From Formosa sp. Hel1_33_131 (lineage in GTDB: Bacteria > Bacteroidota > Bacteroidia > Flavobacteriales > Flavobacteriaceae), in the NCBI RefSeq assembly GCF_001735745.1, contig NZ_CP017260.1, forward strand, positions 1,500,001-1,532,000: 32,000 nt of DNA. Reading direction: 5' to 3'. Position numbers and translations under genes: made by a program. A model generated the notes under the pieces. That model made no database searches and was not told where the DNA came from. It worked only from the letters and a program-made list of their open reading frames with translations. Below are positions 1 to 30,652 of the stretch, one piece after another (position 1 is the stretch's first letter; each line of letters starts with the position of its first letter).

Positions 1-2
1 TT

Positions 3-278: not shown

Positions 279-457
279 GGGATTTAATTTTTTATAAATC
301 TTAGAAAATAAATAAAATTTTAACTTATATAAACCCAATTCACCATATAGGTTGTATGTCAGAACACCTACTTATTTCACAACCAAAATGGAAATGCACT
401 AAACGACTCCTTTATTTTTTACGCTAAAATGTGACGTCCTGAAATAGCGTTACAAAA

Positions 458-1761: not shown

Positions 1762-1790
1762 AATTAAATAGTGTTAGGTGTAACGCTATT

Positions 1791-2372: not shown

Positions 2373-2488
2373 AATAAGGGGTATGCTATAAGTAGGTCGT
2401 TATAATTGCGAAAATATAAAAAAAATCACCAAAAAAGTAAGGGTTATTTAAAATACTTACGTCTTAGTAGTGTATTAAAGATTAAGTA

Positions 2489-3631: not shown

Positions 3632-3846
3632 ACTTAAACTAAAAAAGATGAAACATCCATGTAACCGATAAAAAACAATAAATATAAACAGATGAAATAA
3701 AAACAAAAAACCTCAATCTAAAACAACAAAATCACTTTGTCTTCTTGAAAAATAGAATAAAAAAACCGGAAAATGCTGTAACATTCCCCGGTATTTATAA
3801 GTGATCAACTAAAATCAGTCATTCACTATTTAAACACTTTAAAAAT

Positions 3847-7227: not shown

Positions 7228-7233
7228 AACAAC

Positions 7234-8781: not shown

Positions 8782-8834
8782 TTCTTTACATTATTTATCA
8801 GGGTTTAAATTAGTCAAAATCAATTCATGATTTG

Positions 8835-8872
8835 ATAAGTGCATTCTTAATAGAATGCACTTATTTTATTTT
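8835..8872 (+). terminator. Rho-independent terminator after the susD-like gene
   Basis: A perfect 13-bp stem (8835-8847 pairs with 8852-8864) has a 4-nt loop and is followed by a T-rich tail (TTTATTTT). Confidence 0.8.
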
Positions 8873-8945
8873 GAATTAAGAAATAACATCTCTCATTCAT
8901 TTTAACGAGTTTCAGAACTTATTTTAATTTTTTTAAAAAATCAAT

Positions 8946-10289
8946 ATGAACTTCTCCAAATTCCCACCTTTATCACAAGTACTTCCTTCAAAAGATAAAA
9001 TACCAGAACATCTTGTTTCTAAAAAATATAAACATTGGAGGTGGCGCATGTTTATTGGGATGTATATAGGGTACACTATTTTTTATTTCACACGGAAAAA
9101 CATATCTCCTGCATTGCCTTTAATTAGCGAAAAACTAGATATTGACATTATTCAATTAGGGATATTAAGCAGTGTTTTTTATGTGGTTTATGGTATTGGA
9201 AAGTTCATTAGTGGACTCTTAGCAGACAGAGCAAATATCAGAATGTTTATGGCCATTGGGCTTTTTCTAGCATCCCTCATACATTTGTTTATTGGATTTT
9301 TAGATAGTTTATATCTAATTGTTTTCTTTTGGGGACTCAATGGAGCCTTTCAATCCATGGGGTTTCCGCCAATTGCGAAAGGTTTAGTCCACTGGTTTTC
9401 ACCACGAGAAAGAGCAACGAAATGGACTATCTTATCCTCTTCACATACGGCAGGTACCTTTGGAATTGGACTCCTAGTTGCTGGAATTATCAACCTGTAC
9501 AACAAAGGAGTTGTAGGCTGGGAAGCTGTTTTCTATGTACCAGGCATTATAGGGTGTTTAACCGCTATATTTTTGTTTATTACATTGCGGGATCGTCCTG
9601 TTTCCTTAGGGTTGCCTCCAATTGAAGACCATAAGAACGAGAGACCCATAGTAGAGTTGATCGAAAAATCAAAATCGCATTGGGAGCTATTAAAAAAACA
9701 TATTTTTACCAATAAATATATTTGGCTGTTAAGTTTGGCCAACATGTTCATTTATATCATTCGTTTTGGAACTTTAGACTGGGCAACAATATTCTTGTAT
9801 GATATAAAAGGGATTGATCAGGTACAAGTAGCCATTTTTTGGACATTAATGCCTTTGGCAGGAATCCCAGGAGGCATAGTAGCAGGTTATTTGGCCGATA
9901 AATTTTGGAATGGACGCTGTGTTCCTATTAACGTTATTTACCTTGTGTTGTTAACATTTAGCATCGTTGTTTTTTATTTTTATTCAGGACCTAATAACAT
10001 TATTCTAACGGGGGTCTTTTTGTTGCTAATTGGCTTCCTCATCGATGGACCTCAAAACTTAATAAGTGGGGTGCAAGCCTCCAGAGTCACAGTCAAACAG
10101 GCCATTTCTGCAGCCTGCGGAATGACAGGTTTTTTCGGTTACGTAGGGGCTACCTTTTCAGGAATAGGATTGGCTTACATAACGGAATCTTTTGGGTGGA
10201 TGGCGATGTATGGAGTCTGTGCATTATCATCAGTTCTGTGTTTGATTTTAGTACTAATGACTTACAAAAAAGAAAAGGGGCATTCATAA
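8946..10289 (+). CDS. MFS organophosphate:phosphate antiporter (GlpT/UhpC/UhpT family)
   Basis: The 447-aa product has about 12 predicted TM segments. Blocks match my memory of E. coli GlpT: RWRMFIGMYIGYTIFYFTRKN, GxxxDRxN, GFPPIAKGLVHWFSPRER and GLPPIEDHKNE (GlpT has GLPPIEEYKND). I cannot tell which substrate subfamily it belongs to. Confidence 0.85.
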   Translation: MNFSKFPPLSQVLPSKDKIPEHLVSKKYKHWRWRMFIGMYIGYTIFYFTRKNISPALPLISEKLDIDIIQLGILSSVFYVVYGIGKFISGLLADRANIRMFMAIGLFLASLIHLFIGFLDSLYLIVFFWGLNGAFQSMGFPPIAKGLVHWFSPRERATKWTILSSSHTAGTFGIGLLVAGIINLYNKGVVGWEAVFYVPGIIGCLTAIFLFITLRDRPVSLGLPPIEDHKNERPIVELIEKSKSHWELLKKHIFTNKYIWLLSLANMFIYIIRFGTLDWATIFLYDIKGIDQVQVAIFWTLMPLAGIPGGIVAGYLADKFWNGRCVPINVIYLVLLTFSIVVFYFYSGPNNIILTGVFLLLIGFLIDGPQNLISGVQASRVTVKQAISAACGMTGFFGYVGATFSGIGLAYITESFGWMAMYGVCALSSVLCLILVLMTYKKEKGHS

Positions 10290-10342
10290 TCACGTAAATC
10301 GATTCGTTTCAAACTTAAAAACTCTAGTTTTAAAATACAAAG

Positions 10343-18139: not shown

Positions 18140-20653
18140 ATGTATGTACTAAAAAGAGACGGCAGAAAAGAAGAAATCATGTTTGACAAAATCACAGCAA
18201 GAGTTAGAAAACTCTGTTATGGTTTAAATGAATTGGTCGATCCTTTAAAAGTTGCCATGCGCGTTATTGAAGGGCTGTATGACGGTGTGACGACCAGTGA
18301 ATTGGACAATCTTGCCGCAGAAGTAGCCGCAACAATGACCACGGCACACCCTGATTATGCAAGACTTGCAGCGCGGGTATCTGTTTCTAACTTACATAAA
18401 AACACAAAAAAGACTTTTAGCGAAGTCATGCACGATTTATATACCTATGTCAACCCAAGAACAGGAAAAGATGCCCCTTTATTATCTGATGAGGTTTACA
18501 ACGTAATTATAGAAAACAAAGAAAAATTAGATTCTACAATTATATACAATAGAGATTTTGGATACGATTACTTTGGGTTTAAAACCTTAGAGCGTTCCTA
18601 TCTTTTAAAGTTAAATGGTATCATTGCAGAACGCCCTCAACACATGTTGATGCGTGTTTCTATTGGGATACATTTAAACGATTTGGATTCTGCCATCGAA
18701 ACTTACGAATTGATGTCCAAAAAGTTTTTCACCCATGCAACGCCTACCTTATTTAACTCAGGGACTCCAAAACCACAAATGTCGTCTTGCTTTTTATTAA
18801 CTGCAAAAGACGATAGTATTGATGGGATTTATGACACTCTAAAACAAACGGCTAAAATCTCACAATCTGCTGGAGGTATTGGTTTGGCAATGCACAACAT
18901 TAGAGCGACTGGAAGTTATATTGCGGGGACCAATGGTACCAGTAACGGAATTGTTCCAATGCTGCGTGTTTTTAATGACACGGCACGTTACGTCGATCAA
19001 GGTGGTGGAAAACGAAAAGGAAGTTTTGCGATTTACCTAGAGCCATGGCATGCTGATATTTTTGATTTTCTTGATTTAAAGAAAAATCACGGGAAAGAAG
19101 AAATGCGTGCAAGAGATTTATTCTATGCCATGTGGATTCCAGATTTATTTATGAAGCGTGTGCAAGAAGATTCGTTTTGGACCTTAATGTGTCCGAACGA
19201 GTGCCCTGGATTGCCAGACGTTCACAGTGAAGAATTCGAAACACTTTACCTGAAATATGAAGAATTAGGCAAAGGACGTAAAACCATAAAAGCAAGAGAG
19301 CTTTGGGAGAAAATCACCGAATCTCAGATAGAAACAGGAACGCCTTATATGCTTTATAAAGATGCGGCCAACAGTAAATCAAACCAAAAAAACTTAGGAA
19401 CGATTCGTTCGTCCAACCTTTGTACAGAAATTATTGAGTACACTTCACCAGATGAAGTGGCTGTTTGTAACCTTGCGTCCATTGCGTTGCCAATGTTTAT
19501 CAAAGATGGCAAATTTGATCATCAAGAATTATATACAATCACCAAACGTGTGACGCGAAATCTAAACAAAGTGATCGACCGAAATTATTACCCAGTAGTT
19601 GAAGCCGAAAATTCAAATATGAGACACCGTCCAATTGGAATCGGTGTGCAAGGATTGGCAGATACGTTTATCAAACTGAGAATGCCTTTTACAAGTGACG
19701 AAGCAAAACAATTGAATCAAGATATTTTTGAAACAATTTACTATGCCGCCGTGACTGCTTCTATGGAAGAAGCGACCGAAGACGGGCCGTATCAAACTTA
19801 TGAAGGTTCTCCAATTAGTGAAGGAAAATTCCAACACAATTTATGGGGTCTTAAAGATGAAGATTTAAGCGGTCTTTGGGATTGGGGAACATTGCGCAAG
19901 CAAGTACTAGAAAATGGGGTGTGTAACTCTCTTTTAGTGGCACCAATGCCAACGGCAAGTACCTCTCAAATTCTTGGAAACAACGAATGTTTTGAGCCTT
20001 ACACTTCAAACATCTATACCCGTCGCGTACTGTCTGGAGAATTCATTGTGGTTAACAAGCACCTTTTGGAAGACTTAGTGGAACTAGGACTGTGGAACGA
20101 AGGTTTAAAGCAGGATATCATGCGTGCGAACGGATCCATACAACATGTGGATGTGATTCCACAAGACATTAAAGAATTGTATAAAACGGTTTGGGAATTG
20201 AGCATGAAAGATATTATTGACATGTCGCGTCAGCGTGGTTACTTTATCGATCAATCACAATCTTTAAATTTATTTATGGAAGGGGCCACAATGGCTAAAC
20301 TCACGTCTATGCATTTCTATGCTTGGAAAAGTGGATTGAAAACAGGGATGTACTACTTAAGAACAAAGAGTGCAGTCGATGCCATTAAATTTACTTTAGA
20401 TAATAAGAAAAAGGAAGCACCACAGCCAGAAACGGTTGAAGTTGCAGCCGCAGTAGAAACAGCAGTTATAGAAACTCCCGTTGTGGAAACAGCGGTTTTG
20501 GAAAAGCAACAAGAAAAAGCAGCCAACACTGCCGCCAAATTTTCTCAAGAAACAACCGTTGACGTAGCACCCATGTCTGCTGAAGAAATGAAAGCGCTGG
20601 TTCAACAAGCAAAAGAAGCTGAAGGCGATGACTGCCTGATGTGCGGGTCTTAA
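18140..20653 (+). CDS. nrdA: Ribonucleoside-diphosphate reductase, class Ia large (alpha/R1) subunit with ATP-cone and C-terminal CxxC tail
   Basis: The 837-aa product has an N-terminal ATP-cone ([16 protein letters not shown]). Catalytic blocks are present ([30 protein letters not shown]). The C-terminal redox tail is DDCLMCGS. Confidence 0.95.
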
Positions 20654-20665
20654 TACAAGTTTAAA
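20592..20665 (+). repeat. Direct repeat copy 1: the functional 3' end of nrdA plus 12 nt downstream
   Basis: This sequence recurs at 26458-26530. The two copies share a 46-nt perfect core (AAGCAAAAGAAGCTGAAGGCGATGACTGCCTGATGTGCGGGTCTTA). Only 2 differences fall in the 62 coding nt. Confidence 0.9.
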
Positions 20666-20675
20666 TATTATATCT

Positions 20676-20707
20676 AACCTCCTAATGAAACTTAGGAGGT
20701 TTTTTTT
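20676..20707 (+). terminator. Rho-independent terminator after nrdA (current configuration)
   Basis: AACCTCCTAA (20676-20685) pairs with TTAGGAGGTT (20692-20701) around a 6-nt loop. A T-run follows to 20707. Confidence 0.85.
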
Positions 20708-20729
20708 GCGCCGTACAGTTTCATAGCCG

Positions 20730-20765
20730 TGCAGTCTCTACGACCTTTTTACGCTAAGCCGCCCC
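20730..20765 (+). repeat. 36-nt repeat X, copy A (partner at 26390-26425)
   Basis: TGCAGTCTCTACGACCTTTTTACGCTAAGCCGCCCC compares with TGCAATCTCTACGACTCTTTTACACTAAGCTGTCCC at 30/36 identity in the same orientation. Each copy lies just inside one nrdA-3' repeat. Confidence 0.6.
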
Positions 20766-21006
20766 TCGCTGCCGCACGAATCCTTTCGTGTGGTCATAAA
20801 GAAAAGTAACGAGTTTGATAAAAACAAAGAATTGTATTTTAAATTTAAGAAGGAGGTTAGATGAGTAGAAATTATAAGTTTCATAATCCAGAAGAATATG
20901 TTTATAGTAGTGCCGTTGATTATGCAGATCAAAAAGGATTTATAGATGATGTGCTGGTTTTTAGAATGTTAAATCACCACACGAAAGGATTCGTGCGGTA
21001 GCGGGG
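20763..21006 (+). mobile_element. 244-bp hairpin-ended repeat element (MITE-like), copy 1, carrying a Y1-transposase relic ORF
   Basis: By eye this copy is 100% identical to 24129-24372. A 23-bp perfect terminal inverted repeat core, CCGCACGAATCCTTTCGTGTGGT (20772-20794), pairs with 20976-20998. It lies within imperfect ends of about 32 bp (CCCCTCGCTG... and ...TAGCGGGG). Each arm contains its own hairpin, CACGAA-TCCT-TTCGTG. Confidence 0.8.
20861..21001 (+). pseudogene. 46-aa relic of an IS200/RAYT-like (Y1) transposase inside repeat copy 1
   Basis: An AAGGAGG lies 5 nt upstream of the ATG. The product is MSRNYKFHNPEEYVYSSAVDYADQKGFIDDVLVFRMLNHHTKGFVR. The N-terminus resembles the MSRKYKFHNPEG... 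start, and the middle resembles the ...PE(D/E)(W/Y)xYSSAxDYxxxKGLxD... C-terminus, of Bacteroidota Y1_Tnp proteins as I recall them. The catalytic core is missing. The ORF is too short to appear in the ORF track. Confidence 0.6.
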
Positions 21007-21224
21007 ACACTATTAAAGAAAAAACGAGAGTAATAAACAAGAAAAAAATAAATTTAGAGAAAACTAATAGAACTTTTATAAAAAATAATAATGGGTTAGA
21101 CATAGTAATAAGAAACGAAAATAAAAGAGTTTCTACCCCGTATTTTTATCCATTAAATATAAATTCTTGCTATACGTATTTCCATCCTCTACATGGAAAT
21201 GTTGAGCTTTGTTACAAAGGTAAA

Positions 21225-21443
21225 GTGAATTTCGATAAATTTAAAAATGTTTATAAAATTGAATACGTTCAAAAAGAGACAGATGGAATTAGTAAGGTTT
21301 TGTATTTAGATAAAGATTTTACTTTCATTGGAATATCTGAAATATATGGATCTAGTTATGATTTAGATAAAGAAATTAGAGTTTTAGAATCCGATATTCC
21401 GTTAGAAATATTAAAAGTTTTGGTTCCGAATGTTTACTATTAA
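21225..21443 (+). CDS. Hypothetical protein, probably the 3' part of a gene truncated by repeat copy 1 (possible orphan immunity gene)
   Basis: The track ORF starts at GTG 21225. The same frame is open with no ATG back to 20973, which is inside the repeat element. The ORF ends 9 nt before the Rhs frame opens. Confidence 0.35.
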   Translation: MNFDKFKNVYKIEYVQKETDGISKVLYLDKDFTFIGISEIYGSSYDLDKEIRVLESDIPLEILKVLVPNVYY

Positions 21444-21476
21444 AAATAATAACTACGCAATGGCAACATTGGACAA

Positions 21477-23405
21477 TTGGTGCGTTATGGTCAAAACCCA
21501 AACAACAACTCGCAATCTAGAGGCATGGACTATTTAAAATATACCTATGACGACGGCAACCAACTGACAGGAGTAAAGGACCACTATAACAATACCACCG
21601 CCAACAGCATGGGCGGATTTAAGGATGGAAACACCACCCCAGTAGATTATGCCTACGACACCAATGGCAACATGACCGTGGATAAAAACAAAAACATTAC
21701 AAGTATAACCTACAATTATTTGAATTTACCAAAACAAATACAGTTTGACAATACGTCTCCTTTAACCGACGGTACAATTTCTTATGTGTATGATGCTACG
21801 GGAGTTAAAATAGAAAAAAGCGTTTCACAGGTTGGTTCAGGAACGACTTTTACTCAATATGCTGGGAATCATATTTATAAGAAAACGGTTCCTGTGGTTA
21901 ATAACCCCAATCCCCCAACATACGAATTTAAATTAGAATTCATCTCTCAACCCGAAGGTTATATAGAACCAAACGCAACTGGTGGTTTTGACTACATATA
22001 CCAATACAAAGACCATTTGGGCAACATTCGGTTGAGCTACAAACAAGAAGGTTTAGAATCGGTTATAGATGATTTTAATGATGGTACAACAGGCAGTTGG
22101 GGTGCGTATGCATCAACCATTTCAAATGTAAATAACTCCCTGAAAGTAAGTGTATCAGGTGGAGGGTTTGGAGTTTATAAAACACTGTCCGTAACGGCAG
22201 GAGAACCCATTCATATCCGTTTAAATTTAGACAAAGGCACCACAGATAAAGTAGTACTTAATGAATTTTCTCAAGGCAATCTCTCTGATTTGACCGAAGG
22301 CTCTAACAACATCACTTATACCCCCACCACCACAGGAGATTTTCATTTGTTAATCGCTAAAGACCCCACAAGTAGTGATGTGGGCACACAAACGTACTTT
22401 AATGTAGACGACATAGAAATCACAATGGGAGAAGATGAGTTGGTGATTGTAGAAGAAAATAACTACTATCCTTTTGGACTTAAACACAAAGGGTATAATA
22501 ATATTGTATCAGCTAACGCCAATAGTGTGGCTCGGAAATTTGGTTTTGGAGGTAAAGAACTACAAGACGAACTCGGTCTTGATTGGTATGATGTATCTGC
22601 TAGAAATTACGACCCTGCAATTGGTAGATGGTTTAATCCAGACCCATTAGCAGAAGAGTTTTCAGATTGGTCACCATATACTTATGCGTTTAATAATCCA
22701 ATATACTTTATTGATCCAGATGGAATGGCTGCTGTTCCACCAGATGACTATGTGTTCAATGAAAATGGAGATTATGTTAGGAGAGATATTAATAATAAGC
22801 CAGATAAAATTGTAATTGAAAACTCTAAAACTCAAGAAATTCAAGGAAAATATAATTTTAACGACCCAAATGATGTAGTAGATATTAATTCTGGTAAAAT
22901 AAATAAAGTCAGAATGGTTACTCAAAATGAAATTGGAGACGAAATAGTGAAAAACGGTTCAGCTTTAACAGTAGCAAGAGGTGAATCAGCATTTAAGTAC
23001 ATTGAAAGAGAAAGTAGACCTCCAGGTGATGAATCAATATTTTCAGGAATAAGTACGGGAAAACTTGATGGAGTTTCAACAAGCAAGTTAGTGCAAAATG
23101 GCATCGGTGCTTTGACACTTATTAAAGGAAACGGCTCTTCGAGGGATGGAACAGGTTATAATTATAAAGATTTTGGAAACTTTATTTGGGGAAGGTCTGG
23201 AAAAGCCCTTAATTTAGGTATTACTACATTACAATTCGGTGCACACCTTAATAATGCTTTTAATGGTAATTCAGATAATGGTGGAATGAAAACAGGAATA
23301 CGTGATTCAGAAGCAGATCAAAGAGCTATACGAGCCGGATATTATTACCCTAATGGAGTTCCAATTTATAAGGATCCATTAACAAGTTCTCCTAGGGGTG
23401 AATAA
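21477..23405 (+). CDS. Orphan (N-terminally truncated) Rhs/YD-repeat protein fragment with RHS core end and a C-terminal polymorphic toxin domain
   Basis: YD repeats are present (YTYDDGNQLTGV, YAYDTNGNMTVD, YVYDATGVKI). The RHS-associated core is present (YQYKDHLGNIRLSY, NNYYPFGLKHKGYN, YDVSARNYDPAIGRWFNPDPL) and ends in the PxxxxDPxG(L/M) motif PIYFIDPDGM (DPDGM = 22713-22727). An AT-richer tail of 226 aa follows. The frame is open only from 21453 and the first start candidate is TTG. There is no signal peptide or N-terminal trafficking domain. Confidence 0.85.
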   Translation: MVRYGQNPNNNSQSRGMDYLKYTYDDGNQLTGVKDHYNNTTANSMGGFKDGNTTPVDYAYDTNGNMTVDKNKNITSITYNYLNLPKQIQFDNTSPLTDGTISYVYDATGVKIEKSVSQVGSGTTFTQYAGNHIYKKTVPVVNNPNPPTYEFKLEFISQPEGYIEPNATGGFDYIYQYKDHLGNIRLSYKQEGLESVIDDFNDGTTGSWGAYASTISNVNNSLKVSVSGGGFGVYKTLSVTAGEPIHIRLNLDKGTTDKVVLNEFSQGNLSDLTEGSNNITYTPTTTGDFHLLIAKDPTSSDVGTQTYFNVDDIEITMGEDELVIVEENNYYPFGLKHKGYNNIVSANANSVARKFGFGGKELQDELGLDWYDVSARNYDPAIGRWFNPDPLAEEFSDWSPYTYAFNNPIYFIDPDGMAAVPPDDYVFNENGDYVRRDINNKPDKIVIENSKTQEIQGKYNFNDPNDVVDINSGKINKVRMVTQNEIGDEIVKNGSALTVARGESAFKYIERESRPPGDESIFSGISTGKLDGVSTSKLVQNGIGALTLIKGNGSSRDGTGYNYKDFGNFIWGRSGKALNLGITTLQFGAHLNNAFNGNSDNGGMKTGIRDSEADQRAIRAGYYYPNGVPIYKDPLTSSPRGE

Positions 23406-23426
23406 CATCATAAAAAAAGTAAAAAA

Positions 23427-23993
23427 ATGAATACGAGAGTTAAAATTTTATTGTTGATTTTGTTAACATTATTTTGTTCTTGCAAAAACACAAATCAGCA
23501 TTTAGATAAGAAGATTTCAATAATTCAGAACTCAAATTTTGAATTATTTGAAGGTGTAAGAATTGAATCAAGATATATTAAAGATGGCATACATCAAGCT
23601 CCATTTTTCACAAAACAACTAAATAACCGAAATTATTTTTTACCAAATGCTTCTTATTATGGATGTGATTTTGGAGATTTTAAATGTTTAGAAAAGGCTA
23701 CTGAGGTAGGTTCTGATCCAATTGATTTTGCATATGAAAATAATGTGTCAAAAGAAAAGGCTAATATTTTTATTGGAGATTACACAAAAAAAATCATTAG
23801 GGAGTTTGAAAAACTTAGAGTAAGTCAGGTTCTTAGTGATTCTAAAATAGGTGATTGTTTGATTTTTTTCCTGAAGGATAATTACATACTAATTCATGTA
23901 AATATTCCTTCTGAAATTTATAATTCATATTGGAAAACTGAAATTTTAAAAGCAGAAAAAATTAACCAGAGATGGTATTTGATTAAAAAATAA
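23427..23993 (+). CDS. Putative cognate immunity protein (lipoprotein) of the Rhs C-terminal toxin
   Basis: The 188-aa ORF starts 21 nt after the toxin stop, the canonical immunity position. It has a signal peptide with a lipobox-like LFCSC. It is AT-rich like the toxin tail. Confidence 0.55.
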   Translation: MNTRVKILLLILLTLFCSCKNTNQHLDKKISIIQNSNFELFEGVRIESRYIKDGIHQAPFFTKQLNNRNYFLPNASYYGCDFGDFKCLEKATEVGSDPIDFAYENNVSKEKANIFIGDYTKKIIREFEKLRVSQVLSDSKIGDCLIFFLKDNYILIHVNIPSEIYNSYWKTEILKAEKINQRWYLIKK

Positions 23994-24128
23994 ATATAAA
24001 ATTAATTCTAGCCATATGAAGACCTTAATAATGATATTACTGATGAGTTTAATTATTGGATACTAATACCTGCTAGAGAAACTCAAGTTAGAGAAAAAGT
24101 TGAAAACCCTATTAGGGTAGAACAAAAT

Positions 24129-24372
24129 CCCTCGCTGCCGCACGAATCCTTTCGTGTGGTCATAAAGAAAAGTAACGAGTTTGATAAAAACAAAGAATTG
24201 TATTTTAAATTTAAGAAGGAGGTTAGATGAGTAGAAATTATAAGTTTCATAATCCAGAAGAATATGTTTATAGTAGTGCCGTTGATTATGCAGATCAAAA
24301 AGGATTTATAGATGATGTGCTGGTTTTTAGAATGTTAAATCACCACACGAAAGGATTCGTGCGGTAGCGGGG
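24129..24372 (+). mobile_element. 244-bp hairpin-ended repeat element (MITE-like), copy 2
   Basis: This copy is identical to 20763-21006 and lies in the same orientation. Its flanks are unrelated to those of copy 1, and no target duplication is visible. Confidence 0.8.
24227..24367 (+). pseudogene. 46-aa Y1-transposase relic ORF inside repeat copy 2
   Basis: The sequence is identical to 20861-21001. Confidence 0.6.
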
Positions 24373-24515
24373 TAATAGTAAAGGAGAAAGTATAAAGCGT
24401 TTTTAGAGTTTTAAGGAAGATAACCATAAGCTTATTGTTTTAATTTACCATTGTTTTCGTCATTGTTCTGTAAATATAACTGCAGCTTGTCATTCCCAGA
24501 AGCCTGAACCAAAAA

Positions 24516-24725
24516 TCATTTAGAAGCTTTAATTAAATTACTACCAGCAGTAATTAAAATAATAAATCCAAGAATACAAAATACTAGAGAAACTTCTGCT
24601 GCGGTAACAATATCCTCGGGATGCCAATTATATAAAATAGGTAGAATCCTAGCCATGCGAGAAGCTAAAAGCAAAGTACCTGCAATTGTGAAATTAACAC
24701 CAGCCGTTTTAAGTCTTGAGTTCAT
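24516..24725 (-). CDS. Small two-TM membrane protein, hypothetical
   Basis: The 69-aa ORF has two hydrophobic segments. I recognise no homology. It lies inside the accessory segment. Confidence 0.35.
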   Translation of the reverse strand: MNSRLKTAGVNFTIAGTLLLASRMARILPILYNWHPEDIVTAAEVSLVFCILGFIILITAGSNLIKASK

Positions 24726-24878
24726 GTTTTCTAAAATTTTAAAGAGGTTCGGTACAAAATTAGAAAAATGCAGTGCAGTTAAGCTTTTAATTATAGGAAA
24801 CCATAAGTCATCCTATATCACAAGATGAATAGAGTTTTAATATGGGGCGCTGTTTGATGAAGGAAATTAACTTGGCTA

Positions 24879-26180
24879 TTATATTATTTTTATGATTCGA
24901 ATTCGTTTGTCGTGCTTGCTGTTTTCTTTAACAATGACCTCTTTTTTTGAGCCGATATTTTTTGAAATCACCTTATTCATGTTTTTTAAACTAGATCGTA
25001 GTTTTTTGGATTTGGATTCGTAGGACATAGTGGGCTCATAGAAATTTAGAATGTAGGGATTTTCAAGCCCCTTATTTTTAGTTTTCAATAATTCATCCAA
25101 AATATAGTTTTCATTTTCGTTTAGTTCCTCCCTTATAGCATCAATATTCTTAAGAATTTTATCTTTAGTATCTTCAGTCTTTCTCAAAATGAAACATACT
25201 AAAATCAACAAAATTAAACCACCAAAAATTAAAAAGTTAAAAAGTGAATTCGTTGCTGTAAACAAGTCATAGGTCTTTACATTATTAGTTAGAAATTCCT
25301 TTTTAGCAAAAAAAACAGGTTTCTCCTTCCCGTTTATATGGTTATTGGAAACCACCATAAATTGATTTGATGCCGGATTGTATGTAATTGACGATGCTCC
25401 CCATACGAGTTCAGAATTAAAACCTTCGAACTTTTGGATCTTATTATTTTCAATATCTATGAGTAAACAATTTTGTTGTGTGATGATTAAATACTTTCCA
25501 TTATACGGGACTATTTTCACAAAGCTAAGTATCAAATTGGGTTCAACGATCTCACTGATGTTCGTTTCGCCAAGATACTGCCAGGAATGTGAATTTAGAT
25601 CTAACGTCCAGACATCTTGCAAAAGCTTTGTAGAAACTTTTAATTGACCGTCTGTGTTTTTACGAAAACCACCAAAAATATACAGGCTGGAATCTTTTAC
25701 ACTAGCAATTGCTAAACGTCTCGGTTCTGGATGATTTTCATCTGAAAAATAATTAAACTCATACCATTCTTTAACATCGTTATCAAAATATATCAGATTA
25801 TTTGTATTATTAAAAAGCCCATACCCTCCAAAAGAGTAAACCTTTTCTTGGTACTCAAATAACGAGGACTGGTATTTATTTCTATGATCAAAAGAACGAT
25901 CAAGCCTCTTAAATGTATGATTTTCAAAAGAAAACACCAAGCCGATCCCCTTTGAGATTAGATAAGTTTTTTTATTAGTATTTAAATAGTCAAAATTAAA
26001 ATGTGGAAATGTCGTATTATGTTTGATCACTTCAAAATTTTGACCATTTTTAGTTTTATATATCTTTTCACTATCAACAAGATAAAAATAGTCGCCTTTT
26101 TGAAATGCAATATATTGGTCACTAATCAGTTCAGGGATACTTACTAGGTTGATGAGAAGTAAAGTTGCAATTTTGAACAT
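24879..26180 (-). CDS. Kelch-repeat beta-propeller protein with a single TM helix and a ~100-aa cytoplasmic tail (possible winged-helix DNA-binding tail)
   Basis: The 433-aa product has a signal-like N-terminus. Kelch-type signatures are present (KVYSFGGYGLF, SLYIFGGFRKN, DVWTLDL). A TM helix spans about residues 313-332 (LFNFLIFGGLILLILVCFIL). The basic tail is LNENENYILDELLKTKNKGL...KLRSSLKNMNKVI...DKRIRIIKI. Confidence 0.7.
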   Translation of the reverse strand: MFKIATLLLINLVSIPELISDQYIAFQKGDYFYLVDSEKIYKTKNGQNFEVIKHNTTFPHFNFDYLNTNKKTYLISKGIGLVFSFENHTFKRLDRSFDHRNKYQSSLFEYQEKVYSFGGYGLFNNTNNLIYFDNDVKEWYEFNYFSDENHPEPRRLAIASVKDSSLYIFGGFRKNTDGQLKVSTKLLQDVWTLDLNSHSWQYLGETNISEIVEPNLILSFVKIVPYNGKYLIITQQNCLLIDIENNKIQKFEGFNSELVWGASSITYNPASNQFMVVSNNHINGKEKPVFFAKKEFLTNNVKTYDLFTATNSLFNFLIFGGLILLILVCFILRKTEDTKDKILKNIDAIREELNENENYILDELLKTKNKGLENPYILNFYEPTMSYESKSKKLRSSLKNMNKVISKNIGSKKEVIVKENSKHDKRIRIIKII

Positions 26181-26389
26181 AGTTAAATTGAATTATATTA
26201 CTAAATTAAAGCTTTTAAAACAAAATTTAACCCTCCAAATGGATTTATGTGTGATGATTTTAGTGATTTTATAATTAGTGCTTTGTGTAACACCAAGTTA
26301 TGTGAAAACACTAAAAACGGTAAACACTTTAGTGCTTAAGGTTTACGGTTAGTTTATATGCAGACTTACGGATTTAAGGGGGTAGTCCC

Positions 26390-26425
26390 TGCAATCTCTA
26401 CGACTCTTTTACACTAAGCTGTCCC
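26390..26425 (+). repeat. 36-nt repeat X, copy B
   Basis: This copy matches 20730-20765 at 30/36. It is followed by a mini-hairpin, CCC-GAATAA-GGGG, at the position where copy A abuts the 244-bp element. Confidence 0.6.
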
Positions 26426-26457
26426 GAATAAGGGGTTTGTACTGGTAGTGATTGAGG

Positions 26458-26530
26458 AAGCGCTGGTTCAATAAGCAAAAGAAGCTGAAGGCGATGACTG
26501 CCTGATGTGCGGGTCTTAGTAAGGTTTAAA
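26458..26530 (+). pseudogene. Displaced remnant of the nrdA 3' end (direct repeat copy 2)
   Basis: The remnant reads GCG CTG GTT CAA TAA where nrdA reads ...CAA CAA GCA... It then matches nrdA perfectly for 46 nt up to a TAG stop. No ORF lies upstream of it. Confidence 0.85.
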
Positions 26531-26533
26531 ATC

Positions 26534-26567
26534 AAAAAAGCACCTAGTTCAAATTAGGTGCTTTTTT
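26534..26567. terminator. Bidirectional Rho-independent terminator between the nrdA remnant and the convergent PiT gene
   Basis: The structure is an A6 tract, then GCACCTA, an 8-nt loop, TAGGTGC, and a T6 tract. It lies 23 nt beyond the PiT stop codon (26590) on the minus strand and 4 nt after the nrdA-3' remnant on the plus strand. Confidence 0.85.
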
Positions 26568-26589
26568 ACGTAGTCAAATAAATTAGTGT

Positions 26590-28890
26590 TTACTCATTCT
26601 CATCACTGATTTTAGCAGGTTTTACGCTACTGTCATATTCTGTGTGGTATTCTTCTAACAAGCCTGTTGTAGCATTCAACAAGTCTTTGGTTTCTAGTAA
26701 CAAGCTAAAGTAAAGCGTCGTATTTTTCGGACTCGATTCCTCGGTACGGGTTCGTTGTACTTGGGCCTCAATATTAGATTTAAGAATCCCTGAAATCTCA
26801 TTTTTCTGCTCAATAATCGATCCTATTTTTTCGAAGGATTCGGAGTTAAAAACCACAATCGCTTCAGAGAATAATTGTTGTATGGCATCATTGATTTGAC
26901 TCAACTCTTTAATTTGATTGAACTTCAGTTTTTTGTGATTGTTATGAACGTGCTTATGACTCACTTTAGTAATATAAGTCAAGGATTGCGCCATGTCCTG
27001 AAGGTACCCTAAAATAAGAATGTAAAAATTACTGGCCCCGATACTCGATTCATCTAAGTTTTTAATAAAGTAAAAGATATTATCTCTCAATTCATCCACT
27101 TCATCCGAGAGCTTAATAATTTGCTTTTTGTTCTTTTTAAGGGAGTCTAAATTTTGTTGAGCAAGGCCGTTGAAAGCAGCTGCATAAATTTTCTTACCAC
27201 GATTTAGAACGTTTCCAATATTTTCTGCACTCTCAATAATCACCCCCTGAACAGAACTACTTTCTGTTTTTTTCAAACGGTCATCCGATGCAATCTCTTG
27301 GGTCTTTTTTCTATGAACGATGGAGCTTCTAATAAGTAAAGAAATCGCAGTTAAAAGAAGAATTGGAAACATCACTTCTAAGTTCAAGTTTAGCAAGTAG
27401 GCAACCAAAGCCGCGGCACTAAAAGCACTAAAGGCCGTAAAGAACCAACCGCCAATAACATTAAGCACTCCTGCTACACGATATACAGCACTTTCTGACC
27501 CCCAAGCTCTATCGGCTAAGGAAGTTCCCATCGCAACCATAAAGGTCACGTAGGTTGTTGAGAGTGGTAATTTGTAGGAAGTTGCAATAGATATTAAAAC
27601 AGCCGCTACCATAAGGTTTACAGCCGCTCTGACCAAATCAAAAGCAGGCAATTCATGCACCTTGTTTTGAGTTAATTTTATGACCGGTTGTTCAAATTGT
27701 TGTTCAATTTTTTCTTGCCAGGATGTCGGTAAAACATAAGCTGAGAATTTTGAAGCGCCCATTGCAAACCTCACAAAACCACGGGATAATGTATTGGGTT
27801 GAAAACGCTCTTTTGTTTCCCCTTGACTAGACAAATCTAAAGACGTCTTAACAACATCTTTTGCCTTCGTAGAAAACCATAAGGTCACCACCATCACCAT
27901 TCCAGCGCCAAACAACAACCAGTTGTTGGTAGGAACTTTAGAGGCCAATACATCCATTGGAAATTCAGAGGCTGAAACGCCAGATGCCGACCATTCTATA
28001 AATGCATTATAAGCAGCTACGGGAACACCAATAAAGTTCACAAGGTCATTACCCGCAAAGGCCAATGCCAATGCAAACGTTCCAACAATAATAATGAGCT
28101 TATAAATATTCACTTTTGCAAAAGCAATCAGTACATAAGACAATAAAGACCAGATCACTGAACTAATCAATACAATAGTTAAGACTTGCATTTCTAAGAA
28201 ATCTTTCATTGTTTCCCCACCAAGGATATCAAAAGATTGTTTGGCGTATGAAGTTCCTTTCAAACCTTTCATAAAGATAAAATAGGTAATCGCAGTCAGT
28301 GCAATTCCACTAAAAAGAGCGCCTACCCAATGTGCTTTTCTTTCGAAATTATAGGATAATAAGAGCCTAGACACCCATTGCACGAGTGCTCCAATAGAGA
28401 ATGCAACCACTACCGAAAGGAGGATTCCGAATATAATTTGAGAAGCTTTTGACGTATTTATATAATTTACGACTTCGCTAAAATCACCGCCATTTGCGCC
28501 AATTTTAATCAATGCCATTGCGACGGCTGCCCCTAATAATTCAAAGACAATAGAAACCGTTGTTGAGGTTGGCATCCCTAGGGAATTAAAGAAATCCAGA
28601 AGCAAAATATCTGTGATCATGACAGCCATGAAAATAATCATAATCTCGTTGAACATAAATTCACTCGGATTAAAAATTCCTTTTCGCGCTACTTCCATCA
28701 TTCCACTCGAGAAAATCGCACCAACAGCGACCCCAACACTGGCCACAATCATGATGGTCTTGAACGAAATTGCCTTGGAACCAATCGCTGAATTTAAAAA
28801 ATTCACAGCGTCATTACTAATTCCAACGACCAAGTCAGCAATAGCCAAAAAGGCCAAAGCGATAATCATATATAAATAAATATTTTCCAT
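26590..28890 (-). CDS. PiT (PHO4) family inorganic phosphate transporter with a long C-terminal soluble helical extension
   Basis: The 766-aa product has duplicated PHO4 signatures (GISNDAVNFLNSAIGSKA and GNDLVNFIGVPVAAY). The protein is polytopic to about residue 530. A hydrophilic tail of about 230 aa follows, which may be PhoU-like; this is unverified. Confidence 0.9.
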   Translation of the reverse strand: MENIYLYMIIALAFLAIADLVVGISNDAVNFLNSAIGSKAISFKTIMIVASVGVAVGAIFSSGMMEVARKGIFNPSEFMFNEIMIIFMAVMITDILLLDFFNSLGMPTSTTVSIVFELLGAAVAMALIKIGANGGDFSEVVNYINTSKASQIIFGILLSVVVAFSIGALVQWVSRLLLSYNFERKAHWVGALFSGIALTAITYFIFMKGLKGTSYAKQSFDILGGETMKDFLEMQVLTIVLISSVIWSLLSYVLIAFAKVNIYKLIIIVGTFALALAFAGNDLVNFIGVPVAAYNAFIEWSASGVSASEFPMDVLASKVPTNNWLLFGAGMVMVVTLWFSTKAKDVVKTSLDLSSQGETKERFQPNTLSRGFVRFAMGASKFSAYVLPTSWQEKIEQQFEQPVIKLTQNKVHELPAFDLVRAAVNLMVAAVLISIATSYKLPLSTTYVTFMVAMGTSLADRAWGSESAVYRVAGVLNVIGGWFFTAFSAFSAAALVAYLLNLNLEVMFPILLLTAISLLIRSSIVHRKKTQEIASDDRLKKTESSSVQGVIIESAENIGNVLNRGKKIYAAAFNGLAQQNLDSLKKNKKQIIKLSDEVDELRDNIFYFIKNLDESSIGASNFYILILGYLQDMAQSLTYITKVSHKHVHNNHKKLKFNQIKELSQINDAIQQLFSEAIVVFNSESFEKIGSIIEQKNEISGILKSNIEAQVQRTRTEESSPKNTTLYFSLLLETKDLLNATTGLLEEYHTEYDSSVKPAKISDENE

Positions 28891-28959
28891 AATATAGTTT
28901 CTATTATTTGGCTAATTTCTTAAGACTTTCGGTTTGTAAAGTTAAGTTAATGTTATGTT

Positions 28960-30165
28960 TTAGAAATGAATATCGAACCCGAGTCTAAAAGTGATATTAT
29001 CTTCTTGACCGTCCAAGGTTGTATAGCTTATATCACTTTGAACCTTCAGCTTATGTCCAACAAGAAATCTATTGAATCCTAATGTATATTGTTTAGAAGG
29101 AAGTGTTTCTGTAATTGATTCGTAATCTAGTGTTGTAAAACGTCCTGCAATCTCGTAGTTGTTTTTAAATAAATATCCAGCCTGTAGGTTTAAAGCATTT
29201 CCTGTCAGTACAATATCGCCCGTTGGAGTAATTCCATCTGCTTCTGTAGCTATAACATTGTCCGCCGTACGTTTGGCATATTCAGCCATAAATGAAACTC
29301 CATTGTATTTAAACATTGCATCTACAAAAACAGTTGTTTGGTTGGTTTCAAAAATAGTTTCATCAGTTCTAATCATGTAGTCCCCTGCAAAACCGCGTTC
29401 ACGAACTGCATTTTCATTAAAGTTGTAAGTAACCCCCACCATTAGTTTCGATGTCCCTTCTCTTTTTAGATCTGACTGGCTGTAATCTCCTTTAGATTTA
29501 AAGGCTCCAAAGGGTAAAAACTCCAGTCGAGCAGTGTACTGTAGCCCACCTTCATTTCCTTCAGTGACGTTACGACCTTCGCCTTGTGATATGGCAAATT
29601 TTTCGCGCATTAAAAAGTTACCACCTAAGTTAGATTTGTGACGGATTTGGATTCCTAAATCACGGTCAATATTAAATCGACTATTTAATAAAGAACGATC
29701 AATTAACTGCAAATTAGCAGAAGATACTACACGTTCCACATTACCTGGAAGTTTTGTTTGACCTGCCCATAGCTCCCAGTTTTTTGAAAACTCCCACATA
29801 ATTACAGCATCTAAAATATATCTGGGTGTGTTTCTGTTAAATTGATTTGCCCCAGAAATATCTCTATTTGATAACCCTAACTCTAGTTTGTATCTTAATT
29901 TTGGGCTGTAAGCAAAACCGTCAAATTTTAAACGTGAACGACGAACAATAAAATTATGCTCTGGACTTACAAATTGGTTTCCGTCGTGATCCCATGAGGA
30001 CATAGAACGCACTTGAAAGCGTGGTGCAAATTTCACACTAAATGTGCTGTCTTTTGCTACGAAATTGATCAGCCCTTTTCCAAAGGTAGTATCACTGATT
30101 TCTTGAGATTGAACGGTTGTAATTGCAATAAGAACGATTGCCACAGATAGAATTCTGAATTTCAT
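28960..30165 (-). CDS. Phosphate-selective porin O/P (OprO/OprP-like) family outer-membrane protein
   Basis: The 401-aa product has a signal peptide and an alternating beta-strand pattern that ends in F. Blocks such as RRSRLKFDGF, LELGL and WAGQTKLPG match my memory of this porin family in Bacteroidota. It lies directly upstream of the PiT gene on the same strand. Confidence 0.75.
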   Translation of the reverse strand: MKFRILSVAIVLIAITTVQSQEISDTTFGKGLINFVAKDSTFSVKFAPRFQVRSMSSWDHDGNQFVSPEHNFIVRRSRLKFDGFAYSPKLRYKLELGLSNRDISGANQFNRNTPRYILDAVIMWEFSKNWELWAGQTKLPGNVERVVSSANLQLIDRSLLNSRFNIDRDLGIQIRHKSNLGGNFLMREKFAISQGEGRNVTEGNEGGLQYTARLEFLPFGAFKSKGDYSQSDLKREGTSKLMVGVTYNFNENAVRERGFAGDYMIRTDETIFETNQTTVFVDAMFKYNGVSFMAEYAKRTADNVIATEADGITPTGDIVLTGNALNLQAGYLFKNNYEIAGRFTTLDYESITETLPSKQYTLGFNRFLVGHKLKVQSDISYTTLDGQEDNITFRLGFDIHF

Positions 30166-30169
30166 TAGA

Positions 30170-30311
30170 GTATTAGTTTTTGTCGATGCAAATAACTTAA
30201 ACTAATGTTATCTTAATGTTTCCTAAAGATTAAGATAGAATGAAAAAAAGCTGCCTGGCCAAGGGCAGCTTATTAGAAATCATCATTTTTGTAGTCGACA
30301 AAAACTAATAC
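30170..30311. repeat. 17-bp perfect inverted repeat pair enclosing two hairpins, directly upstream of the porin start codon
   Basis: GTATTAGTTTTTGTCGA (30170-30186) is the exact reverse complement of TCGACAAAAACTAATAC (30295-30311). The 108 nt between them hold a 9-bp hairpin (TATCTTAAT...ATTAAGATA) and a GC-rich terminator hairpin. Confidence 0.8.
30243..30271 (-). terminator. Minus-strand Rho-independent terminator located inside the porin/PiT leader (attenuator or sRNA 3' end)
   Basis: On the minus strand the sequence reads AAGCUGCCC-UUGGCC-AGGCAGCUU followed by further U residues, giving a 7-U run in total of which 2 are in the stem. On the plus strand the tail is poor (TTATTAG). No minus-strand gene ends upstream of it. 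Confidence 0.6.
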
Positions 30312-30652
30312 ATTACAATGATACTAATTGGTTGTCTAGACTCTGTAAATATTATAATTAATCATGAATCTAGTGTAAGGGAAACGTTAAGGAATCATTA
30401 AACCTATGAAATGGATAGATGAATCGGTGGATTTAAAATCAAATTTTATAGGATTGTTGGGCTTCTTTATTTTTAATAGTTTACCATCAAGCTGTTGTAA
30501 AAGAGGTTCTAAATGGTATCCTTACACTGGTGTTTTTGATTAAAGCGCGTCAATTCGTAAACCCTCATGTTAATTTAATGTAAACAAATTGTTGATTTTG
30601 TGTAAATTTTTGTATATTTATAATCTAATTTAGAACTTCAATACACTTTATT

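What the first reader, a model, noticed from the sequence alone, without database searches (positions are those of the whole stretch)
20592..26567. About 5.8-kb accessory segment inserted into the 3' end of nrdA, bounded by a duplicated nrdA terminus, with no recombinase
What the sequence shows:
- The last 62 coding nt of nrdA plus about 12 nt downstream occur twice, at 20592-20665 and 26458-26530. The copies share a 46-nt perfect core.
- The second copy has a C-to-T change that creates an in-frame TAA, and its stop codon is TAG rather than TAA.
- A faint protein-level echo (EE..ALVQ) continues just upstream of the second copy.
- The downstream copy, not the one that completes nrdA, is followed by the bidirectional terminator (26534-26567) shared with the convergent PiT gene. 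That looks like the ancestral nrdA/terminator/pit junction.
- The functional copy carries its own, different terminator (20676-20707).

This is the design of integrative elements that target the 3' end of a gene and bring a replacement end. Here the target is an essential RNR gene rather than a tRNA.

The 5.8 kb encode no integrase, excisionase or replication gene. They carry two Y1-relic repeats, an orphan Rhs toxin/immunity module, a small membrane protein and a Kelch-TM regulator-like protein.

Two readings are possible. The segment may be a decayed island. Alternatively it may be an element mobilised in trans with an unrecognised mechanism.
Basis: partly seen in the sequence, partly recalled or inferred. 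Interest (0 to 1): 0.75.

Follow-up and report, generated by a model that had tools for sequence, protein, structure and literature searches.

The report
Old gene islet splitting nrdA's end
The duplicated end of the ribonucleotide-reductase gene is real and marks an old insertion next to it, but the 5.8 kb is several layers of ordinary genome change rather than one hidden mobile element.

Summary
The nrdA 3' end is duplicated at 20592-20666 and 26458-26532 (75 nt, with a 46-nt perfect core). With gaps the match runs 114 nt, through both terminators. Eleven related species read nrdA, about 80 nt with a terminator, then pit, and window 26458 onward is collinear with that junction.

1. An old islet (Kelch-TM gene plus a 69-aa gene, and remnants of a lost lipoprotein gene). 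It sits beside pit in three other lineages and diverges as much as its flanks. No version carries a recombinase.
2. D1, a 245-nt MITE-like repeat, present or absent among conspecific contigs.
3. An orphan Rhs toxin/immunity cassette between two D1 copies. D1 also punctuates the main rhs array.
4. A strain variant in which the islet is replaced by an IS3 fragment.

Within the species, nrdA's last 1.4 kb plus the islet is nearly SNP-free between divergent flanks, which points to spread by homologous recombination. One contig starts with a circle-or-tandem junction. That is a hint only.

Verdict: a fixed insertion scar plus ordinary recombination. It is a new member of a known kind, of moderate interest.

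The parts
18140..20653 (+). nrdA, class I ribonucleotide reductase large subunit, 837 aa, intact
   Evidence: Pfam hits to ATP-cone, Ribonuc_red_lgN and Ribonuc_red_lgC (E=8e-214).
20592..20666 (+). Copy 1 of the repeat: the last 62 nt of nrdA plus 13 nt downstream. This is the live gene end.
20676..20707 (+). Terminator T1 (CCTCCTAA..TTAGGAGG followed by T8), unidirectional here. It is the same type as both terminators of L117.
20726..20766 (+). D7a, a copy of a dispersed repeat of about 60 nt found only in this species. It is truncated here by D1 and full-length in variant B contigs.
   Evidence: nhmmer E=1.7e-11; sequences.
20763..21007 (+). D1 copy 1: a 245-nt MITE-like element with 34-nt terminal inverted repeats and a 46-aa relic ORF (20861-21001).
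   Evidence: The link to REP-associated tyrosine transposases is indirect.
21225..21443 (+). 72-aa ORF in the cassette leader. The leader is shared at 98.5% with the alternative cassette in L106.
21477..23405 (+). Orphan Rhs C-terminal fragment: YD repeats, the Rhs-associated core ending in DPDGM, then a toxin domain of about 225 aa. It has no N-terminal delivery domain.
   Evidence: TIGR03696 E=1e-17, above the cutoff. DNA similarity to the 3' part of the main rhs gene in L101. Protein sequence.
23427..23993 (+). 188-aa lipoprotein-like gene, presumed cognate immunity gene. GC content 25.6%.
   Evidence: Position and signal/lipobox sequence. The exact protein recurs in several other contexts. 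The immunity role is inferred.
24129..24373 (+). D1 copy 2, identical to copy 1 over 244 nt.
24409..24493 (-). Two short remnants that flank a deleted lipoprotein gene. The gene is still present in L116 and L117.
24516..24725 (-). 69-aa small membrane protein, always paired with the Kelch gene.
24879..26180 (-). 433-aa protein with a Kelch beta-propeller, one transmembrane helix (about residues 306-336) and a cytoplasmic tail. Identical to AOR28492.1 (FORMB_14500).
26387..26445 (+). D7b, the second copy of the dispersed D7 repeat. By eye, its weakly conserved tail seems to run on to about 26457, abutting copy 2.
   Evidence: nhmmer E=8e-17; alignment.
26458..26532 (+). Copy 2 of the repeat: the displaced, non-coding nrdA end, with an in-frame TAA and a TAG stop.
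26534..26567 (.). Terminator T2, bidirectional. It is the ancestral terminator shared by nrdA and pit.
26590..28890 (-). PiT/PHO4 phosphate transporter gene, convergent with nrdA.
19286..26575 (.). Nearly SNP-free tract between strain backgrounds that differ by 4-12% on either side. It covers the last 1.4 kb of nrdA, the islet, copy 2 and T2.

Best explanation
The interval is a layered accessory islet in Formosa sp. Hel1_33_131, not a single element.

Layer 1 (old). A small block of envelope-protein genes entered by one recombination event inside the last ~60 nt of nrdA. Today the block is the Kelch-TM gene plus the 69-aa gene. It once also held a lipoprotein gene and a fourth ORF. The incoming DNA carried its own nrdA end and terminator (T1), which now complete nrdA. 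The native end and terminator (T2) were left beside pit as a 114-nt pseudo-copy.

My committed guess for that first event is homology-anchored capture of a fragment of a related chromosome, with nrdA as the anchor and no dedicated recombinase (about 45%). An integrase-borne island that later lost its integrase is the next option (about 35%). This step is inferred, not shown.

Since then the islet has been inherited vertically:
- The pseudo-copy has been lost in L116 and L130.
- It stays close to the live copy in the window and in L117, most simply through gene conversion.
- Within the species, the islet plus 1.4 kb of nrdA spreads between strain backgrounds by ordinary homologous recombination. 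The right-hand edge of that tract lies at the copy 2/T2 block.

Layer 2. D1, a 245-nt MITE-like element, inserted into D7a.

Layer 3. An orphan Rhs toxin/immunity cassette was captured by recombination between D1 copies. D1 also separates cassettes in the main rhs array.

Separate variant. In some strains an IS3-linked deletion removed the whole islet.
For: Shown:
- Empty sites (nrdA, 77-122 nt, pit) occur in 11 species, and copy 2/T2/pit is collinear with L002.
- T2-type terminators are native in L002, L006, L009, L013 and L116. T1-type occurs in window copy 1 and in both L117 copies. T1 and T2 differ by compensated stem changes.
- The islet lies beside pit in L116, L117 and L130; L117 also shows nrdA on the other side, whereas the L116 and L130 contigs end before it. 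Kelch-region and flank DNA identities to the window are equal for L116 and L117: 87.8 versus 87.7, and 83.4 versus 83.0 to 84.6. For L130 they are 82.7 versus 85.9, the latter over only 496 nt of pit.
- L117 has its own duplication with different limits: 86 nt at 96.5%, made of 28 nt of coding sequence plus the terminator. L130, which is 91.6% identical to L117, lacks it.
- No recombinase domain is present in any version.
- Variants A to D in conspecific contigs were defined by blastn and by reading the sequence.
- D1 has at least 6 distinct flanks and lies between rhs cassettes.
- The cassette has an Rhs-associated core domain and occurs in other genomic contexts.
- The IS3 fragment of variant A is 99.75% identical to window 1283-1681.
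- Only 3-4 SNPs fall between 19286 and 26575, against dense SNPs outside that tract.

Inferred: the mechanism of the first event, gene conversion between the copies, and D1-by-D1 capture of the cassette.
Against: - The primary mechanism cannot be read from the sequence. The layout is also exactly what a site-specific integrase produces.
- The start of the L108 contig joins the left flank of copy 2 to the right flank of copy 1. If real, this means circles or tandem copies exist.
- Three independent boundaries coincide at 26567-26575: the end of the repeat unit, the deletion edge of variant A, and the edge of the SNP-free tract. That could mark a specific site rather than a homology block.
- In L117, copy 2 is identical to the window over 27 coding nt, although neutral DNA between the two is 17% diverged. 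Drift alone does not explain this.
- The nrdA side of the L116 and L130 loci, and the closest sister species L001, were not seen because the contigs end.
Confidence: 0.6

Rival explanations
1. The islet is an active non-autonomous integrative element. A site-specific recombinase encoded elsewhere recognises the nrdA tail/terminator, excises the islet as a circle, and re-inserts it into empty nrdA-pit sites.
For: - The layout is att-like, with a replacement gene end.
- The contig behind L108 begins with the junction expected of a circle or tandem copy.
- Breakpoints recur at 26567-26575.
- There is precedent for a recombinase-less island moved in trans: the H47 island (PMC3191183).
Against: - The islet diverges in step with its flanks in L116 and L117, and roughly so in L130.
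- None of the other 78 full-length nrdA loci from other species has an nrdA-tail duplicate within 10 kb.
- No empty site appears among the conspecific contigs read.
- All size variation is accounted for by D1, the cassette and IS3.
- There are no plasmid, phage or viral copies.
- The junction rests on a single contig end, and the contig includes only 38 nt of the copy-2 flank.
Confidence: 0.12
2. The islet is a decayed integrase-borne island. A larger element integrated site-specifically into the nrdA 3' end, bringing a replacement end. It then lost its integrase and mobility genes before the present lineages split.
For: - The design matches e14/icd-icdC (PMC13626634).
- The islet has demonstrably lost genes. 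The lipoprotein gene and a fourth ORF are present in L117 but deleted in the window and in L130.
Against: - There is no integrase remnant, and little room for one, in any of the four versions.
- In L117, the fullest version, nrdA, a bidirectional terminator and a convergent four-gene operon look like an ordinary chromosomal neighbourhood with no mobile-element hallmark.
Confidence: 0.22
3. The origin was purely local. The nrdA tail plus terminator first duplicated in tandem, the cargo landed between the copies later, and T1 and T2 diverged in place.
For: T1 and T2 are alignable, and the repeat unit is a neat tail-plus-terminator module.
Against: - It needs two events.
- T1 versus T2 differ at about 17 of 53 positions with compensated stem changes, while the adjacent 61 nt differ at 1 position. 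Uniform in-place decay does not give that pattern.
- T2 matches the outgroups and T1 matches L117.
Confidence: 0.05
4. The duplication is an assembly artefact.
For: None.
Against: Both copies are present with identical sequence in more than 25 contigs from long-read and short-read assemblies of different samples.
Confidence: 0.01

Closest known systems
e14 prophage (and phage 21) integrated in icd of E. coli, leaving the icdC pseudo-end (Hill et al. 1989, as summarised in PMC13626634)
   Same: The insertion lies within the 3' end of a housekeeping gene. The incoming DNA supplies a replacement end with a few differences. The displaced native end survives as a pseudo-copy at the far junction. 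Recombination between the two ends would restore a chimeric gene.
   Different: e14 is a 15-kb prophage with its own integrase and excisionase, and it excises on SOS induction. Here there are 2-6 kb of envelope and toxin genes, no recombinase in any version, vertical inheritance over species-level divergence, and no demonstrated excision.
Microcin H47 genomic island of E. coli (PMC3191183)
   Same: It is a small island flanked by extensive, imperfect direct repeats and carries no recombinase of its own. Hybrid junctions form within segments of identity between the repeats.
   Different: H47 excision and integration were shown experimentally and are RecA-independent. Here there is only one contig-end hint. 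As far as the abstract read here says, the H47 repeats are not described as a gene end plus terminator.
Orphan Rhs-CT/immunity cassettes downstream of rhs genes (PMC3150448, PMC3967940)
   Same: The fragment is a truncated rhs with the core end motif plus a toxin domain and a small downstream gene. It shows homology to the main rhs core, and its content is polymorphic between strains.
   Different: This cassette sits at a locus remote from the main array. It is bracketed by a MITE-like repeat (D1) that also separates cassettes in the array. In classic cases the exchange runs through the rhs core homology itself.
REP / REP-associated tyrosine transposase (RAYT) systems and MITEs (from my own knowledge; NCBIfam NF047646)
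   Same: D1 has 34-nt GC-rich terminal inverted repeats containing a hairpin, many copies at different sites, presence/absence polymorphism, and an ORF that looks like a transposase with its middle deleted.
   Different: The link to RAYT is indirect: D1 ORF to the Dokdonia relic P0046 at E=6e-5, then P0046 to NF047646 at E=0.002, below the cutoff. No full-length partner gene was seen. In variant C, D1 replaces 30 nt rather than inserting cleanly.
Flexible genomic islands of marine bacteria exchanged by homologous recombination in conserved flanking genes (from my own knowledge)
   Same: A variable interval lies between conserved core genes (nrdA and pit). Different genera hold different genes there. 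A near-identical tract crosses divergent strain backgrounds.
   Different: Such islands normally leave no duplicated gene end. Here a 114-nt copy of the left flank sits at the right border.

Membership tests
Integrative element inserted in the 3' end of a gene (e14/icd type) | Direct repeats made of the target gene's 3' end flank the insert | tested here: met
   75 nt at 91%, or 114 nt at 84% with gaps.
Integrative element inserted in the 3' end of a gene (e14/icd type) | Empty sites in relatives read gene, native downstream sequence, neighbour | tested here: met
   Eleven species have nrdA, 77-122 nt, then pit. Window 26458 onward is collinear with L002.
Integrative element inserted in the 3' end of a gene (e14/icd type) | An integrase or recombinase gene lies inside the element, next to an att site | tested here: not met
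   No such domain was found in any ORF of the window interval or of the L117 islet.
Integrative element inserted in the 3' end of a gene (e14/icd type) | Excision gives a circular junction and a restored empty site | tested here: inconclusive
   One contig (L108) starts with the expected hybrid junction. No empty site was found among conspecific contigs. Reads could not be inspected.
Integrative element inserted in the 3' end of a gene (e14/icd type) | The same element occurs at the same target in unrelated hosts, or on phages or plasmids (horizontal spread) | tested here: not met
   It was found only in close relatives and diverges in step with its flanks in L116 and L117, roughly so in L130. 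None of the other 78 full-length nrdA loci has a tail duplicate within 10 kb. There are no phage, plasmid or viral hits.
Recombinase-less island moved in trans (H47 type) | Extensive imperfect direct repeats and no recombinase of its own | tested here: met
Recombinase-less island moved in trans (H47 type) | RecA-independent excision and integration | not testable with these tools
   This needs culture work on strain Hel1_33_131.
Orphan Rhs-CT/immunity cassette | Rhs-associated core domain followed by a variable C-terminal domain | tested here: met
   TIGR03696 at 64 bits against a cutoff of 32.5, residues 330-417. The DPDGM motif is followed by about 225 aa.
Orphan Rhs-CT/immunity cassette | Lacks the N-terminal delivery region and shares core sequence with a full-length rhs gene elsewhere | tested here: met
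   The ORF starts within the YD repeats. Its DNA is similar to the 3' part of the DUF6443 protein gene in L101.
Orphan Rhs-CT/immunity cassette | The downstream gene neutralises the toxin | not testable with these tools
   Only position and co-occurrence are known.
MITE / REP-RAYT derivative (D1) | Terminal inverted repeats and several copies with unrelated flanks | tested here: met
   34-nt arms at 91% complementarity. At least 6 distinct flank pairs.
MITE / REP-RAYT derivative (D1) | The internal sequence derives from a Y1 (RAYT) transposase gene | tested here: inconclusive
   There is no direct HMM hit. The chain runs through P0046 to NF047646 at E=0.002, below the cutoff.
MITE / REP-RAYT derivative (D1) | Presence/absence polymorphism at a given site | tested here: met
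   Variant B versus variant C. In C, D1 replaces 30 nt of B.

The most novel reading that the evidence does not exclude
The copy of the nrdA tail plus terminator may not be a dead scar. It may be a working, portable homology arm or att-like site. Recombination between the two copies would release the islet as a circle or amplify it in tandem, as the start of the L108 contig suggests. The circle could then re-enter any related genome at the highly conserved nrdA end. The enzyme would be RecA or an unlinked recombinase. That would make this a recombinase-free mobile islet that rides on an essential gene.
Probability: 0.15. Interest if true: 0.65.

Novelty: new member of a known kind. Interest (0 to 1): 0.4.

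Why it matters
This is a clean, well-sampled example of how a variable spot next to an essential gene is built up in an abundant North Sea bloom bacterium, Formosa sp. Hel1_33_131.
- An old insertion scar left a spare copy of the gene end.
- A small repeat element landed in the islet.
- That repeat then served as a docking point for interbacterial toxin cassettes, which differ from strain to strain.

If the spare gene end still promotes excision or transfer, this would be a simple way for genes to move between related bacteria without any dedicated enzyme. If it does not, the locus is still a useful marker of strain-level toxin diversity. It is also a warning against reading every att-like repeat as a hidden mobile element.

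Tried and rejected
- Exact-protein look-up of NrdA found nothing on record. The PiT look-up gave only two contigs of the same type.
- Rfam and tRNA scans of the interval found nothing.
- A 32-nt part of the 46-nt core has no match in viral contigs. The Kelch protein has no real match on plasmids or phages.
- The metagenome scan with the Kelch protein returned only 3 loci.
- I thought I saw a decayed nrdA remnant in L116 (GACTGCCTCATAGCGCGG). It is not above shuffles, so I rejected it.
- I considered D7 as the true att site of the Kelch islet, since copies sit just inside both ends. I rejected this because D7 is absent from L116 and L117 and occurs in the rhs arrays.
- I considered variant A as the empty site. 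I rejected this because it carries an internal IS3 fragment, lacks T2, and sits in a background 99.96% identical to islet-bearing contigs.
- I tested for a foreign 3' part of nrdA using sliding identity against outgroups. The result is not informative, because the C-terminal linker is hypervariable.
- The consensus fold of D7 shows no convincing structure.
- Looking up P0031 only showed that it is the window's own Kelch protein.


Full report
**1. The observation.**
The last 62 coding nt of nrdA plus 13 nt downstream occur twice, at 20592-20666 and 26458-26532 (75 nt, 91% identity). The 46-nt core is perfect in both copies and never arises in shuffles. The C-to-T change that creates TAA, and the TAG stop in copy 2, are as described. 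With gaps, the similarity runs on through both terminators: 20592-20705 versus 26458-26567, 114 nt at 84%. The repeated unit is therefore the gene tail plus its terminator.

T2 (26534-26567) folds as a strong hairpin with an A-run and a T-run, so it works in both directions. T1 (20676-20707) is a hairpin followed by T8 on the nrdA strand only. The claimed protein-level echo upstream of copy 2 is not above chance. Those bases look instead like the end of a repeat, D7b; that reading is by eye and weak.

**2. Where the window comes from.**
The Kelch protein is identical to AOR28492.1 (FORMB_14500) of Formosa sp. Hel1_33_131, and the D1 ORF is FORMB_14480. Many metagenome contigs of the same species were retrieved.

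**3. The empty-site prediction holds.**
I fetched 80 nrdA loci, one per Flavobacteriaceae species.
- Eleven have nrdA, a 77-122 nt gap, then convergent pit.
- blastn places window 26458-28974, not copy 1, collinear with the nrdA end, terminator and pit of L002.
- T2-type hairpins (GCACCT..AGGTGC) follow nrdA in L002, L006, L009 and L013, and sit beside pit in L116.
- Other genera hold unrelated genes between nrdA and pit.
- None of the other 78 full-length nrdA loci among the 80 has a second copy of its own nrdA tail within 10 kb.

**4. The 5.8 kb is layered.**
Conspecific contigs show four states.
- *Variant B.* Window 20770 is joined to 24371 through 30 nt. There is no D1 and no toxin cassette, and both nrdA-3' copies are present. 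It occurs in backgrounds 96-100% identical to the window.
- *Variant C.* As B, but one D1 replaces the 30 nt.
- *Variant D.* The window itself: D1, cassette, D1. L106 has the same cassette leader but a different toxin part at this locus.
- *Variant A.* Window 20656-26573 is replaced by 410 nt, of which 399 nt are 99.75% identical to the interior of the IS3-family element at window 1283-1681. It has lost T1, the islet, copy 2 and T2. Its flanks are 99.96% identical to islet-bearing contigs, so it is a derived deletion and not an empty site.

The D1 copies and the toxin cassette are later additions.

**5. The old core.**
The Kelch-TM gene plus the 69-aa membrane gene lie beside pit in three other lineages.
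- *L116* (87.7% DNA identity) has T2 but no recognisable copy 2.
- *L117* (83%) has nrdA, T1, a fourth ORF, a lipoprotein gene, the 69-aa gene, Kelch, a second nrdA tail, T1 again, then pit.
- *L130* (91.6% identical to L117) has lost the second tail and two of the genes.

Window 24409-24493 holds remnants that flank the lost lipoprotein gene. Kelch-region identity to the window equals flank identity for L116 (87.8 versus 87.7) and L117 (83.4 versus 83.0 to 84.6). For L130 it is 82.7 versus 85.9 over only 496 nt of pit. So the islet has co-diverged with its hosts. No ORF in any version has a recombinase domain. More distant Kelch homologues sit in unrelated chromosomal contexts.

**6. What the two repeat copies say.**
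In L117 the duplication is 86 nt at 96.5%. It covers only the last 28 nt of nrdA plus 58 nt that include the terminator. MAFFT extends it about 10 nt further left with two mismatches. Both L117 copies carry a T1-type terminator.

In the window, T1 and T2 differ at about a third of positions with compensated stem changes, while the adjacent 61 nt of tail differ at one position. That unevenness fits an incoming gene end with its own terminator better than decay in place. The near-identity of the tails within each genome, against 17% divergence between genomes, is most simply explained by gene conversion. That is inference.

**7. How the first insertion happened cannot be read from the sequence.**
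In its fullest form (L117) the islet looks like an ordinary chromosomal neighbourhood: nrdA, a bidirectional terminator and a convergent four-gene operon. I therefore favour homology-anchored capture of a related chromosome fragment (about 45%) over a since-decayed integrase-borne island (about 35%). The layout itself is that of e14 in icd, with its icdC pseudo-end (PMC13626634).

**8. Present-day movement.**
Between the window and diverged conspecific backgrounds, SNPs are dense left of 19285 and right of 26576. Only 19922, 20287, 24414 and 25398 differ in between. So the last 1.4 kb of nrdA, the islet, copy 2 and T2 have recently spread across backgrounds by homologous recombination.

The right edge of that tract coincides with the end of the repeat unit and with the deletion edge of variant A (26573/4). 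L100 combines a window-type left side with the other pit haplotype, switching at the same place. A perfect-match block next to a pit 3' end carrying about 10% SNPs would favour exchange there. A specific site is not excluded.

**9. A hint of excision.**
The contig behind L108 starts with the last 38 nt of the copy-2 left flank, continues through the tail carrying the T variant and the core, and then runs into the copy-1 right flank, T1 and the islet. That is the junction of a circle or a tandem copy. It rests on one contig end, and I could not inspect the reads.

**10. D1 and the toxin cassette.**
D1 is 245 nt long, with 34-nt inverted ends and at least six different flank pairs. It separates orphan cassettes in the main rhs array behind a DUF6443 protein.

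Its 46-aa ORF matches a 69-aa relic in Dokdonia. The N-terminus of that relic hits the REP-associated tyrosine transposase model at E=0.002, below the cutoff. The 'Y1 relic' label is therefore plausible but not proven.

The 642-aa ORF has the Rhs-associated core domain and the DPDGM end motif, and lacks a delivery domain. The same cassette occurs in other contexts. [quoted passage not shown] Capture by recombination between D1 copies is the simplest reading, and it is inferred.

**11. Composition.**
GC content of the accessory genes is 30.4% for Kelch, 25.6% for the immunity gene and 32.7% for the cassette as a whole. nrdA is 39.7% and pit 38.2%.

**12. Verdict.**
The feature is real and was well spotted. 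It is best explained as a fixed insertion scar with later, ordinary layers. The trans-mobilised-element reading keeps about 12-15%.

Noticed in passing
window 308-10335: About 10 kb is absent from the closest other species, L001 (window 1-307 and 10336 onward are adjacent there). The segment holds an IS3-family element, two ORFs, a SusC/SusD pair and an MFS transporter. In some conspecific contigs it is replaced by HxlR/SnoaL-type genes. This is a second variable region in the window.
   Followed up: partly
window 458-1761 (-): An apparently intact IS3-family element: orfA at 1366-1761 and orfB at 458-1240 with an rve domain. An internal 399-nt piece of it, 99.75% identical, is what replaces the islet in variant A strains.
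   Followed up: yes
window 28850-30600 (porin O/P gene 28960-30165): Two deeply different alleles exist in the species. Identity is only 60-73% across the phosphate-selective porin gene, while neighbouring DNA is 95-97% identical. The porin is 398 aa in one haplotype and 401 aa in the other.
   Followed up: no
window 20726-20766 and 26387-26445; L101 6833 and 11138; L104 2888 and 7200; L105 3969: D7 is a dispersed repeat of about 60 nt (CCGTGCAGTCTCTACGACTCTTTTACGCTAATCTGTCCCTTATAAGGGAAT), seen only in this species. Copies sit just inside both ends of the islet and 160-200 nt upstream of orphan toxin genes in the rhs array. It has no convincing fold and its function is unknown.
   Followed up: partly
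L122 (ENA ERZ10646643 contig_4353) 1-10148: A long-read contig links a full-length rhs gene (DUF6443 N-terminus) directly to the window's toxin cassette, then D1, the 69-aa gene and Kelch. This is either a chromosomal rearrangement through D1 or cassette homology, or an assembly chimera.
   Followed up: partly
window 20400-20520 (nrdA C-terminal linker): This stretch is repetitive and hypervariable (GTAGAAACAGCAGTT / GTGGAAACAGCGGTT). Two independent contigs break at window-equivalent position 20503/4 (L001 and L107), and alignments to other species fail here.
   Followed up: no
L131 and L132: A shorter (251-aa) Kelch-family paralogue is again followed by the 69-aa gene, but in a different neighbourhood with an HTH regulator. 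The two genes therefore behave as a unit.
   Followed up: no
L116 (reverse complement) 2390-2545; L117 (reverse complement) 3480-3654: At the same spot between the Kelch promoter region and pit, each lineage carries a different GC-rich segment with inverted repeats. Nothing is shared with D7 or with the other lineage. The spot attracts small repeat-like insertions.
   Followed up: no
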